This document shows, piece by piece, positions 159-11,332 of a stretch of 64,000 nt of DNA. Positions within the stretch are counted from its first letter, which is position 1. Each line of letters opens with the position of its first letter. The notes beneath the pieces are model-generated. The model made no database searches. It was not told the DNA's origin and saw only the letters and a program-made list of their open reading frames with translations. The stretch is from Hormiphora californensis (Eukaryota > Animalia > Ctenophora). Position numbers and translations under genes: made by a program. The stretch is from the NCBI GenBank assembly GCA_020137815.1, contig CM035359.1, positions 1,984,001 through 2,048,000 on the forward strand, read 5' to 3'.

Positions 159-3100
159 CTTCAGTCTTGTTGATTGCGGCTATCTGGCTTCTGAACCATT
201 CTGTTCGGACTTCCAAAAACTTTACCTGGACAGCAGGATTTGGTGAATAAAGTATTCAAAACCATGGAACTAAAATATTCTCTCTTTTAAATAAAAGTGC
301 TGACTGTTTCTGACCCCTTCCTCGAGCGGGAAACATGAACAATATTTCTCTGAAATACCTTCAGCTGTAAACATGAACAATATTTCTCTGACATACCTTC
401 AGCTGTAAACATGAACAATATTTCTCTGACATACCTTCAGCTGTAAACATGAACAATATTTCTCTGACACATACCTTCAGCTGTATCTCTGAATACGTGC
501 CAATCCGTTTCAGCAGCCCAACACACTTGAGACATTGAGCCAGGGTGATGTGAGATCTGAGTTGTTTTAGAAGGGATTCCTCCATATGTAATATACACTG
601 GTCTGAGTCAGCTTTTATCATCTGAGAGTGGGGTAGGGAATATGGAATACGAAAAGAAACTTGTGGATACTGAATGGGAAACCAAAATTTGAGAGAGAGA
701 GAGAGAGAGAGAGAGAGAGAGAGAGAGAGAGAGAGAGAGAGAGAGAGAGAGAGAACGAGAGAGAGAGAGAGAGAGAGAGAGAGAGAGAGAGAGAGAGAGA
801 GAGAGAGAGAGAGAGAGAGAGAGAGAGAGAGAGAGAGAGAGAGAGAGATCAGCAATCTCTACCTGTATAATTGGTATATCTGTGTGTTTTACGGCAAGAG
901 AACACACAAAACTGTGTAACTCCAATCCTTCTTCGTGGAAATTGTTCCTGATACTCGTATCTGTAAGTGGTAGTTAGATTCAGAAATTATTGAGCTAGTA
1001 AAGTCGGATTTTTTGAAGTTGTCACCACCCCTTCTCGCGCATGGAATGTTTTTGTGCGTCATATCACATGTTAACGTGTGGTGTGCACGTCGAAATAGAT
1101 AAATTTCATATGCGTGGTCATTTGGGGGTGACAACAATCCGACTTTAACGATGTTTGGGGGGGGGGGGGGGTTCAACCTAAAAATTTCGATTTGCCAAAA
1201 TCAGGGTATCGATCGAAATTTTTCGAATTTTTTCCCTGCCCGGGTGATCTTTTTAGCACGCACGTGCTTAAAAGATCATTCAGGGTTTAGAAATCAGCAG
1301 ATTGTGTAGTTAACTAAAAGTGTCCGTCCGTCACGGACAACGCCTAACAACAAGTCTGCTCCTTCATAAAACTTTCATCTCACGCTTCGTTGATTCAACA
1401 AAGGAAATGATTAACACACATTGTGACGTGCAATTACTCGCTGATAGCACTTCTCACTATCGCCCGAAATCACTTTGGGCGCCTTACAGCCATGCTATGA
1501 AGTGATAGAACGTCTTCCAAGCATGAAACTACTGTCACACTAGTGACTCGAGTTGAGATGCGGTTAAAGTTTGAAGCACTTGGTAACCAACTGGGGTCAG
1601 GGCCAGGGGTCTCCTAAGCAACTGCCTTGGTTGCCATAGCAACTGTCCTGGTTACCATAGCAACTGCTTTGGTTACCATAGGAACTGCCTTGGTTACCAT
1701 AGCAACTTACCTAGTTACCTTAGTAACCAATATCGCATCAGCCAAAAAATGCTCTTTGAGCACAAAATTCATCAGGAAGTCCAGTTTTGAAGCTTATTCA
1801 TCAATTTTAAATCCATTTGTGGCAGGGAAACACCGCATTATGAATACATAATGCAATAATTCTTGTTTTCGAAGAAATTCGAAAAATTTCGTCAAGTTTC
1901 GAAAAGTTTCGATTTACCAACAATTTCAAAATTGCGAATTGCCATCAGTTTCGAAAAATTTAGAAAAGTTTCGAAAAATTTCATAAAATTCGAAAATTTC
2001 GATTTACCCACAATTTCAAATAATTTAGGAAGATTTCAAAAAATTTCGAAGTGGGTATCGATCGAAATCTTTAGGGTTGAACCCCCCCCCACAAGGTTAG
2101 AGAGGGAGGGTGATGAAAGCAATTTAGCTGAAAGATTCAAAAGATACTTGATCCTTGTTGTTGCAACTCACTGAATCTTAATCAGTTTGTATTGCACCGC
2201 TTGGGTGGTTCTTTTGTATTTTTGATCTGGCGTCCAACGGCCGTGTTGTGAACCAACAGCTTATATGTTGAGAGAGAGGGAGAGAGAGAGAGAGAGAGAG
2301 AGAGAGAGAGAGAGAGAGAGAGAAAAGAGAGAGAGAGGTATGCAATGATAACAGAAACTGGGAAAGAAACATGCCTCATGCATTTCAATAAAGCATGTGC
2401 CACGTGATTGGTCAAATACGCACATCTCACTATAAATAATGCAAATAAGACGGAACTTTGAGATACAAAGCTTACTACTACTTAAGACGGAACTTTGAGA
2501 TATAAAGCTTACTACTACTACTACTCAGAGTGCCTGGGCTTGCCTACGGCAAGCCCACAGGGGACTATCGCTAAAGCGATAACGCCGGCACTAGAGAAGA
2601 GTCCCCACTTCCCCTCCCTTCCCATGGAACTACCATCTGGCAGGTTCACAATATGAAGAAGATTGGAGTGAGGCTCTTCTCGGGGCTTGTTTTTTAGGGG
2701 GGGGTGACACGTAACACTTTGTAACACTTTGTAACATGTGCAGAAAACTTTTTGTGCACGTTACATGTTACAAAGTGTTACATAGTGTTACAAAGTGTTA
2801 CATAGTGTTACAAAGTGTTACATAGTGTTACAAAGTGTTACATAGTGTTACAAAGTGTTACATAGTGTTACAAAGTGTTACATAGTGTTACAAAGTGTTA
2901 CAAAGTGTTACATAGTGTTACAAAGTGTTACATAGTGTTACAAAGTGTTACAAATTGTTACATAGTGTTACAAAGTGTCACAAAGTGTTACATAGTGTCA
3001 CAAAGTGTTACAAATTGTTACAAAGTGTTACAAATTGTTACAAAAACACAAGGATTTGTAGCGAAGCACATTTTCAATCTTTGACCAAAAAATTGATTTT

Positions 3101-11332: not shown

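What the first reader, a model, noticed from the sequence alone, without database searches (positions are those of the whole stretch)
1151..10315. Composite transposon appears to have delivered an entire GPCR gene into a COG8 intron
Seen: COG8 intron 5 (961-10418) is ~9.5 kb while the other introns are ~75-250 bp. The segment 1157-10309 starts with a poly-G left TIR, ends with the matching poly-C right TIR, and is flanked by ATGTTT on both sides. The nearer right TIR (2090) is followed by a non-matching sequence. Another poly-G-ended element here (2697-3826) also shows a 6-bp duplication, consistent with this TSD length. Removing the segment leaves a ~300-bp intron. Inference: transposase used the left end of one copy and the right end of a second copy ~8 kb downstream, moving the GPCR and passenger TEs. 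This is a concrete mechanism for nested intronic genes and for GPCR family dispersal.
Basis: partly seen in the sequence, partly recalled or inferred. Interest (0 to 1): 0.82.

Follow-up and report, generated by a model that had tools for sequence, protein, structure and literature searches.

The report
Gene-carrying composite transposon in COG8 intron
A 9.15-kb block bounded by matching ends of a small poly-G-tipped transposon and flanked by a 6-base duplication sits in one intron of the Golgi gene COG8 and carries a complete receptor (GPCR) gene, so it was likely moved there as one unit by a transposase, which would be a rare animal example of a whole gene delivered into an intron this way.

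Summary
COG8 (Pfam Dor1, minus strand) has introns of 83, 73, 197 and 130 bp, then a 9,458-bp intron 5 (961-10418). Inside it, 1157-10309 starts with a poly-G left end, ends with the matching poly-C right end, and is flanked by ATGTTT on both sides. Only a 6-bp duplication fits (chance about 3-4 in 10,000). Removing it leaves 299 bp.

New here:
- Copy 1 (1157-2092) is a roughly 290-bp MITE with an unrelated element nested in it.
- Copy 2 (10088-10309) is 88% identical but lacks the first ~20 nt of its left end.
- A second, inner repeat (C)AAGGTT sits beside the inward-facing ends of both copies. The layout is therefore cointegrate-like.
- The GPCR looks frameshifted in the window. Short-read contigs from two samples carry six consistent indels that restore an intact, intronless 1,051-aa ORF with LDLa and 7TM domains.

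Best reading (about 0.55): a macrotransposon-type unit insertion. Whether the two ends were independent copies or sister copies of one insertion is open. No empty site, donor locus or family-wide TSD survey could be obtained. The mechanism is known in maize and Drosophila, so this is a new member of a known kind. It bears on why ctenophore nested genes are often TE-flanked.

The parts
961..10418 (-). COG8 intron 5 (9,458 bp). It leaves 299 bp if 1157-10315 is removed.
   Evidence: AG/GT borders and frames read. Pfam Dor1 hits on the flanking exon translations are contiguous in the profile (88-114 then 112-174).
10419..10493 (-). COG8 exon 5
   Evidence: Dor1 E=2.9e-4. Borders are from my reading of the splice sites.
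863..960 (-). COG8 exon 6 (borders inferred)
   Evidence: Dor1 E=9.4e-6, 25.1 bits against a cut-off of 23.3.
1001..1148 (.). Small unrelated TIR element (ends AAGTCGGATT..., TA on both sides) lying 8 bp from the insertion point. A 90% identical copy is at 34541-34667.
1151..1156 (.). Left copy of the outer 6-bp duplication ATGTTT
1157..1227 (+). MITE copy 1, left part: G15, a TIR of about 21 nt, and the subterminal GGGTATCGATCGAAAT motif
1228..1865 (+). Unrelated element ('D') nested in copy 1. Both its ends recur at 27833-28377 (21/21 and 46/47 nt) around a different interior. It is flanked by TTTTCGAA (or TTCGA, depending on the border chosen).
   Evidence: TTCGAA occurs 7-8 times in each right part, so this flank repeat is only weak evidence.
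1866..2092 (+). MITE copy 1, right part (R1): C9 run to 2090, then AC
2092..2098 (.). Inner repeat, left copy: CAAGGTT (AAGGTT if R1 is read as C9-A-C)
2697..3826 (.). Foldback-type MITE with G8/C9 tips and roughly 360-bp arms built of 10-bp repeats, flanked by TTTTTA (6 bp, or 7 with G). Passenger of a different family.
3862..4137 (-). Likely tail of a non-LTR retrotransposon ORF (weak match to zf-RVT). 4066-4537 is very high-copy in reads.
   Evidence: E=0.0047, below cut-off; depth table
4768..4883 (+). Two tandem 58-bp units directly upstream of the GPCR start codon. Contigs in X1 and X4 carry one unit only.
   Evidence: D7; joint 4776>4837
4885..8037 (+). Intronless GPCR gene antisense to COG8: signal-like N-terminus, large Cys-rich ectodomain with LDLa modules, 7TM. 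It is broken in the window at about 6970-6981, 7040-7068 and 7557, but intact (1,051 aa) in read contigs.
8517..10002 (+). High-copy repeat ('TE-B'). A second copy lies at 54951-58888 (93-96% identical), itself split by a nested insertion at 55560-58113.
10081..10087 (.). Inner repeat, right copy: CAAGGTT
10088..10309 (+). MITE copy 2 (R2). It aligns to copy 1 from about position 21 onward (183 of 209 aligned columns identical), lacks poly-G+TTCAACC of the left TIR, and ends C13-T-C7.
   Evidence: Its right tip and flank are confirmed by contigs.
10310..10315 (.). Right copy of the outer 6-bp duplication ATGTTT

Best explanation
The 9,153-bp block 1157-10309 was likely inserted into COG8 intron 5 as a single unit, a macrotransposon. 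A transposase that makes 6-bp target duplications would have paired the left end of one poly-G-tipped MITE copy with the right end of a second copy 8 kb away. That second copy cannot move alone because its own left tip is missing. Everything between the two ends was carried along: an intact intronless LDLa-GPCR gene and several passenger repeats.

Shown directly:
- the two same-family ends at the outer borders;
- the perfect ATGTTT duplication around the whole block;
- the internal right end that lacks this duplication;
- the truncated left side of copy 2;
- the intact reading frame of the cargo gene in reads;
- the small size of the other COG8 introns.

Inferred:
- that the block moved in one step;
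- that a transposase, not recombination, did it;
- the direction (into COG8, not out of it);
- the time of the event.

Open sub-question: the inward-facing ends of both copies are followed or preceded by the same (C)AAGGTT. The two copies may therefore be sister copies of one original insertion. That could arise by tandem duplication of MITE plus flank followed by macrotransposition, or by replication-coupled alternative transposition giving a 'composite insertion'. In that case the cargo is the DNA that flanked that one MITE at the donor.
For: 1. Outer ends. L1 (1157) and R2 (10309) share a TIR of about 21 nt behind G/C runs. The terminal 42 nt of R1 and R2 are 41/42 identical (D6).
2. Outer duplication. 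ATGTTT fits only at n=6 for L1/R2 and at no length from 1 to 12 for L1/R1. Chance is about 3-4e-4 per pair.
3. Copy 1 is a whole MITE. Its left 71 nt and right 225 nt are separated only by an unrelated element with its own flank repeat. R1 is thus a genuine, by-passed internal end.
4. Copy 2 aligns to copy 1 over nearly its whole length (183 of 209 columns) but lacks the first ~20 nt. This is the layout of the maize Ac plus fractured-Ac pairs that form macrotransposons. I saw passages of PMC9910405. The Ac/fAc detail is recalled.
5. A second 6-bp flank repeat beside ends of this same family (AAGGTT) agrees with a 6-bp TSD length.
6. Excision would restore a 299-bp intron, in the range of the neighbours (83-197 bp).
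7. The cargo gene is complete. After the six indels and three substitutions seen in 4 of 4 runs (two samples, two studies; at 7557 run X3 shows it only as loose ends), the ORF is 1,051 aa with one terminal stop. It is collinear with a Pleurobrachia bachei protein at 83% identity over 873 columns.
8. An assembly chimera is unlikely, because the two right parts differ by many indels and would not collapse. The R2/flank junction is also present in reads of two samples.
Against: - No empty site, no donor locus and no other copy of this MITE family could be examined, so the family's TSD length rests on this locus alone. The 2697-3826 element that also shows 6 (or 7) bp belongs to another family.
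- The inner (C)AAGGTT repeat (random-pair P 0.001-0.003, found post hoc) is not predicted by two independently inserted MITEs. It is predicted by sister-copy models and also by transposase-free Campbell-type recombination.
- ATGTTT and AAGGTT share 4 of 6 bases. This may mean a target preference, which would weaken both repeats as evidence.
- The left junction was not checked against reads, although the window demonstrably contains indel errors.
- No transposase is encoded in the window and the superfamily is unknown.
Confidence: 0.55

Rival explanations
1. Campbell-type integration without transposase. A plain MITE (X) already sat at ATGTTT in the intron. A circular DNA of about 8 kb carrying the GPCR and another MITE (Y, inserted at AAGGTT) recombined with X. 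This left two hybrid MITE copies in direct orientation around the circle's DNA.
For: It explains both flank repeats at once (outer = TSD of X, inner = TSD of Y) and allows the two copies to differ (88% identity, nested element in one, truncated tip in the other). The R ends share perfect stretches of 20-21 nt that could host a crossover (D6).
Against: Homeologous recombination between roughly 300-bp repeats of about 88% identity is inefficient (general knowledge). It needs a circular intermediate that happens to contain a simple MITE insertion. No intermediate allele (plain MITE, no cargo) was seen, though it could not be looked for properly.
Confidence: 0.18
2. Stepwise history. The GPCR (or a plain MITE) was in the intron first. 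The present layout arose by several independent insertions, deletions or repair events, and one or both flank repeats are coincidental or reflect a target preference.
For: The block is a mosaic of at least five other repeats. ATGTTT and AAGGTT share A.G.TT, hinting at a preferred target that would make repeated hexamers likelier. Nested genes are common in a related ctenophore (PMC8527503, section 38, passages seen).
Against: A 6/6 match exactly abutting both outer tips has chance about 3-4e-4. Copy 1 is complete yet has no duplication of its own. No left tip partners R2. The cargo has no termini of its own (no TIR, no poly-A tail).
Confidence: 0.15
3. Assembly artefact. COG8 carries only a plain MITE, and the assembler threaded a foreign MITE-flanked segment through it.
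For: The window has at least six indel errors within 600 bp of the GPCR, so it is not a polished sequence. Short-read contigs break in the poly-C runs and do not bridge cargo to flank.
Against: Two mis-joins returning to the same locus would be needed. The repeats are short (about 300 bp, or 936 bp with the nested element) and differ by many indels, which does not favour collapse. The cargo and junction words are held by runs of two samples.
Confidence: 0.03

Closest known systems
Maize Ac/Ds macrotransposons (two linked elements or an element plus a fractured end in direct orientation)
   Same: The outer 5' end of one copy and the 3' end of another act as one transposon. The intervening host DNA (10-28 kb in maize) moves with them. 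One family-length TSD flanks the whole unit, and the internal ends are by-passed (PMC9910405, passages seen).
   Different: Here the ends belong to a roughly 290-bp non-coding MITE of unknown superfamily with G/C-run tips and a 6-bp TSD, whereas hAT makes 8 bp. The host is an animal (a ctenophore relative). Movement is inferred from one locus and was not observed genetically.
Composite insertions from alternative transposition with DNA re-replication (maize p1 locus)
   Same: The inserted block has transposon termini at both borders and donor-flanking DNA inside, with one TSD around it (abstract of PMC4270019 seen in the listing; passages of PMC9910405). This would account for the identical inner flanks.
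   Different: The maize cases start from reversed Ac/fAc ends. Here a single MITE, or sister copies, would be the source. Nothing here shows replication coupling.
Bacterial composite transposons and replicative cointegrates
   Same: Two copies of one element in direct orientation bracket the cargo. The outer flanks carry the new target duplication and the inner flanks carry the donor's old one.
   Different: Eukaryotic nuclear setting, no resolvase system, and the element itself is non-coding.
Drosophila Ising 'TE' (giant units between foldback elements)
   Same: An animal example of host genes mobilised between two copies of a DNA transposon (PMC6431247, section 12, passage seen).
   Different: That case spans hundreds of kb, uses the foldback family and was detected cytogenetically. 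Here the block is 9 kb with base-level junctions.
Pack-MULE / Helitron gene capture
   Same: A DNA transposon carrying host coding sequence.
   Different: Those carry mostly gene fragments inside a single element, and full-length genes are exceptionally rare (PMC6431247, section 9). Here a whole gene lies between two element copies, with an extra internal end.

Membership tests
Macrotransposon / composite DNA transposon | Outer borders are a left and a right end of one TIR family, facing outward | tested here: met
   L1 at 1157 and R2 at 10309 share a TIR of about 21 nt plus G/C runs
Macrotransposon / composite DNA transposon | One target-site duplication of the family's length flanks the whole unit, and internal ends lack it | tested here: met
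   ATGTTT, n=6 only, for L1/R2; no repeat at any length 1-12 for L1/R1
Macrotransposon / composite DNA transposon | The family's usual TSD length equals that of the unit | tested here: inconclusive
   No other copy of this family is in the window. The metagenome scan gave 9 loci, all chance matches. The only support is the inner AAGGTT and a 6/7-bp repeat around a different family.
Macrotransposon / composite DNA transposon | Empty target site or donor locus exists | not testable with these tools
   No genome held. Read contigs are short and break in the poly-C runs. Read-laying calls are exhausted.
MITE (non-autonomous TIR element) | Short, non-coding, with TIRs and a TSD | tested here: met
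   The core is about 296 bp after removing the nested element. No ORF. TIR. High copy in reads of organisms A and B (bin 10202-10437).
COG8 (Pfam Dor1) | Dor1 domain | tested here: met
   three exon translations hit consecutive parts of PF04124, one above the curated cut-off (25.1 against 23.3 bits)
Rhodopsin-class GPCR with LDLa ectodomain | 7tm_1 and Ldl_recept_a domains in one ORF | tested here: met
   Ldl_recept_a 26.7 bits (cut-off 24.1, 3 stretches). The 7tm_1 hit is 26.9 bits on the C-terminal piece alone (cut-off 30.5). The close homologue P0002 scores 33.1. The ORF is continuous in reads.
Relaxin-receptor / LGR type GPCR | Leucine-rich-repeat ectodomain | tested here: not met
   No LRR family in the Pfam results. 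RXFP1 is merely the best solved-structure match for TM5-7 (E=2e-6).
Processed retrogene | Poly-A tail and flanking duplication at the ends of the mRNA copy | tested here: not met
   No A-run downstream of the stop at 8037 before the next repeat. Intronlessness is shared with the paralogue at 63106-63999.

The most novel reading that the evidence does not exclude
MITE-bounded macrotransposition, or cointegrate-like composite insertion seeded by a single MITE, is a recurrent route by which ctenophores acquire nested intronic genes and scatter intronless GPCR genes. This would explain the published but unexplained observation that about half of the nested genes in a related ctenophore are TE-flanked.
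Probability: 0.15. Interest if true: 0.8.

Novelty: new member of a known kind. Interest (0 to 1): 0.55.

Why it matters
Whole, working genes moved by cut-and-paste transposons are rarely documented in animals. Most capture by DNA transposons involves gene fragments (PMC6431247).

Here the junctions are readable to the base, the cargo gene is intact, and the landing site is an intron of a conserved housekeeping gene.

The closest protein matches are from a ctenophore. In a related species, 2,357 nested intronic genes were reported, 1,109 of them TE-flanked on at least one side and 176 on both. The passages I read offer no mechanism (PMC8527503, section 38).

If this locus is typical, it offers a testable mechanism for that pattern and for the spread of lineage-specific GPCR families. 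If it is a one-off, it is still a clean natural example of a mechanism so far shown mostly in maize.

Tried and rejected
1. Pseudogene reading. The window shows two frameshifts and a TGA in the GPCR. I rejected this reading because 4 of 4 runs from two samples carry six indels and three substitutions that restore the frame.

2. Whole-genome search for other MITE copies or a donor. No genome is held.

3. TIR pattern in viral contigs gave 0 hits. In JGI metagenome contigs it gave 9 loci, none with the family's subterminal motif, so all are chance matches. No TSD survey was possible.

4. Empty-site search in reads.
   - The right-hand part listed only 24 of 943 loose ends, none at 10310. This is no evidence either way.
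   - The left junction was never laid.

5. No RNA holder was listed, so expression is unknown.

6. Earlier findings of this scan returned nothing in three look-ups.

7. The spacer 10003-10095 has no relative elsewhere in the window above shuffled-sequence scores.

8. Depth of the cargo relative to the flank as a copy number: the tool warns against this use, so it is kept only as a hint.

9. Retrogene origin was rejected for lack of a poly-A tail.

10. No transposase was found among the 18 ORFs scanned: the 16 of at least 141 aa downstream of 11400, the ORF at 24128-24541 (137 aa) and the RT-tail ORF at 3865-4137 (91 aa). The other 6 listed ORFs of 130 aa or more were left out.

11. Literature. 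Searches found no description of a poly-G-tipped MITE with a 6-bp TSD, nor of MITE-pair gene delivery into introns in ctenophores. These are word searches of an open-access library only.
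Full report
**What is there**

The left 11.3 kb of the window is the 5' part of a COG8 gene on the minus strand.
- Three exon translations hit consecutive parts of Pfam Dor1, at profile positions 14-52, 88-114 and 112-174.
- Reading GT/AG borders and frames gives exons 11282-11335, 11123-11198, 10932-11049, 10624-10734, 10419-10493 and about 863-960.
- Introns 1-4 are therefore 83, 73, 197 and 130 bp. 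Intron 5 (961-10418) is 9,458 bp.
- These borders come from the sequence only. I have no transcript evidence.

The rest of the window holds an array of Ig-domain exons (18.5-50 kb, plus strand) and, at the far end, part of a second GPCR of the same family (63106-63999, minus strand).

**The block**

- At 1157 a run of 15 G is followed by TTCAACC-TAAAAATTTCGAT.
- At 10309 the reverse complement of this sequence ends in C13-T-C7. A further right end of the same kind stops at 2090.
- ATGTTT lies directly outside 1157 and directly outside 10309.
- Of repeat lengths 1-12, only 6 fits for this pair, and none fits for 1157/2090.
- A random pair of hexamers from this window matches with probability 2.9e-4 by composition and 3.7e-4 empirically.
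- Removing 1157-10315 leaves a 299-bp intron.
- Short-read contigs from two samples of two studies reproduce the right tip and flank without a single difference (X1 10291-10515, X4 10289-10638).

One caveat applies. The other poly-G-tipped element (2697-3826, flanked by TTTTTA, or TTTTTAG) has unrelated TIRs, so it says little about this family's TSD length.

Copy 1 (1157-2092) is a small MITE of about 296 bp interrupted by an unrelated element.
- The unrelated element spans 1228-1865. Both its ends recur at 27833-28377 around a different interior.
- It is flanked by TTTTCGAA. That motif is common inside the MITE, so this flank repeat is only weak evidence.
- Weak as it is, the repeat indicates that the left 71 nt and the right 225 nt were once contiguous. 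Copy 1 is then a whole element, and its right end was by-passed.

Copy 2 (10088-10309) aligns with copy 1 from about its 21st base to the end.
- 183 of 209 aligned columns are identical (88%), with several indels.
- It lacks the G-run and the TTCAACC of the left tip, so it is a 'fractured' element with only a usable right end.

Between the copies lie:
- a (GA)n tract;
- a foldback MITE;
- a probable retrotransposon ORF tail (weak zf-RVT hit);
- a very high-copy repeat at 4066-4537;
- a 58-bp tandem duplication that some contigs lack;
- the GPCR gene;
- a 1.5-kb high-copy repeat whose second copy is at 54951-58888;
- a spacer unique in the window.

**The cargo gene**

In the window the GPCR reading frame (4885-8037, plus strand, antisense to COG8) is broken three times. 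A collinear alignment with a Pleurobrachia bachei protein jumps frames at the same places. I first read this as a pseudogene. That reading was wrong.

Contigs of four runs (two samples, two studies) all differ from the window in the same way:
- one base put in behind each of 6970, 6981, 7040, 7049 and 7557;
- two bases left out at 7068;
- three substitutions.

At 7557, run X3 shows the change only as loose ends. With these changes the ORF is 1,051 codons with a single terminal stop. The window therefore carries local indel errors, or a private haplotype absent from both samples, and the gene is intact.

The gene has LDLa modules and a rhodopsin-type 7TM region and no LRRs. Its best solved relative for TM5-7 is RXFP1 at E=2e-6. 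Its closest database relatives are two P. bachei proteins at 86% and 80% identity, so the window very likely comes from a related ctenophore. The gene is intronless, as is the visible part of its paralogue at 63 kb. No poly-A tail follows it, so a recent retrocopy is not indicated.

**A second, inner repeat**

CAAGGTT occurs one base after the C-run of R1 (2092-2098) and two bases before the first aligned base of copy 2 (10081-10087).
- If R1 is read as C9-A-C, much as R2 is C13-T-C7, then AAGGTT abuts both inward-facing ends.
- The layout is then ATGTTT | L1..R1 | AAGGTT - cargo - AAGGTT | (truncated L2)..R2 | ATGTTT.
- Random pairs of 8-12-nt windows show a shared substring this long with probability 0.001-0.003. 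I found the repeat after looking, so it should be discounted accordingly.

This symmetry is what cointegrates show: the new target duplication outside and the donor's old one inside. Three routes would give it:
1. The two copies are sisters of one MITE insertion. Either a tandem duplication of MITE plus flank was followed by macrotransposition, or transposition coupled to re-replication produced a composite insertion, as described for maize Ac (abstract of PMC4270019 seen in the listing; passages of PMC9910405).
2. A circle carrying the cargo and one MITE recombined with a plain MITE already resident in the intron.
3. It is a coincidence, helped by a target preference. ATGTTT and AAGGTT share four of six bases, which by my arithmetic from the per-base match rate has about 4% chance.

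**Weighing**

The outer duplication is hard to obtain by chance. It ties L1 to R2, not to R1, so one event most likely placed both outer ends. A transposase acting on L1 and R2 is the simplest such event and has direct precedent in maize macrotransposons of 10-28 kb that excise and reinsert with one TSD. I give it 0.55. Within that, I cannot choose between independent and sister copies.

| Reading | Weight | Comment |
|---|---|---|
| Transposase acting on L1 and R2 | 0.55 | Simplest single event, with direct precedent |
| Recombination with a circle | 0.18 | Fits all repeats but needs homeologous exchange between short repeats and a particular circle |
| Stepwise accumulation with coincidental repeats | 0.15 | |
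| Assembly chimera | 0.03 | The repeats are short and differ by many indels; junction and cargo words are present in two samples |

**Hints that could not be followed**
- Summed contig depth over unique parts of the cargo is about twice that over the COG8 flank in X1 (roughly 12-28 against 6-10) and in X4 (roughly 780-1570 against 330-820).
- At 7117-7396, two sequence variants occur at about 1:1 in all four runs.
- Together these may mean a second genomic copy of the cargo, which would be a candidate donor. They may equally reflect two common haplotypes in a very heterozygous species. The tool warns that these depths are not copy numbers.

**What could not be done**
- No genome is held.
- A scan of metagenome contigs with the tip sequence returned nine loci, all chance matches lacking the subterminal motif. 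The viral collection returned none.
- No RNA holder was listed.
- The family's TSD length and target preference, an empty site, a donor and expression all remain open.

**Comparison and novelty**

The mechanism is known. Examples are maize macrotransposons and composite insertions, the Drosophila Ising TE between foldback elements (PMC6431247) and bacterial composite transposons.

What is new:
- the setting: an animal, probably a ctenophore;
- the vehicle: a tiny non-coding MITE with G/C-run tips and a 6-bp TSD, of unassigned superfamily;
- the cargo: a complete, open gene;
- the landing place: an intron of a conserved gene, which creates an antisense nested gene.

My five word searches of the open-access library found no description of such a MITE family or of this route to nested genes in ctenophores.

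A genome paper on a related ctenophore reports 2,357 nested intronic genes, 1,109 of them TE-flanked on at least one side and 176 on both. The passages I read give no mechanism (PMC8527503, section 38). This locus offers one that can be tested genome-wide.

I file it as a new member of a known kind, with moderate interest.

Noticed in passing
window 6967-7564: The window differs from the short-read contigs of all four laid runs (two samples) by six indels and three substitutions within 600 bp. This creates false frameshifts and a false stop in the GPCR. Other homopolymer-poor parts of the window may carry similar errors.
   Followed up: yes
window 7117-7396 and 3830-8313: Two sequence variants at about 1:1 in all four runs. 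Summed depth over the cargo is about twice that of the COG8 flank. This could be a second genomic copy of the cargo (candidate donor) or two common haplotypes.
   Followed up: partly
window 63106-63999 (-): A second member of the same LDLa-GPCR family (about 49% identical in TM4-7), cut by the window end, lies 53 kb from the nested one. It is also uninterrupted by introns over the visible part.
   Followed up: partly
window 18555-50364 (+): A long array of exons encoding immunoglobulin-type domains (Ig_2, I-set, V-set, Ig_3), several near-duplicates of about 254 aa.
   Followed up: no
window 54951-58888: Second copy of the 1.5-kb high-copy repeat found at 8517-10002. It is split by a nested 2.5-kb insertion (55560-58113) that has long inverted arms and a small TIR element with an internal G17 run, flanked by TAATTA.
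   Followed up: partly
window 31340-31770: Foldback element with inverted arms of over 100 nt, in which the G7/C7 runs are internal rather than terminal. G/C runs are 17-fold (7-mers) to over 100-fold (9-mers) more frequent in the window than in shuffles (70 against 4.1 for 7-mers; 44 against 0.3 for 9-mers). Most of these runs lie in repeats.
   Followed up: no
window 1228-1865 and 27833-28377: Two elements share both termini (ATTTTTTCCCTGCCCGGGTGA... and ...AATAATTCTTGTT) but have unrelated interiors.
   Followed up: partly
window 4768-4883: A 58-bp tandem duplication ends two bases before the GPCR start codon. Contigs in X1 and X4 carry a single unit, so it is polymorphic or differs between copies.
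   Followed up: partly
window 300-480 and 680-850: The next COG8 intron holds tandem repeats of about 41 bp and a (GA)n tract of about 170 bp. Similar (GA)n tracts occur at 2268-2338, 38600-38690 and 61160-61355.
   Followed up: no
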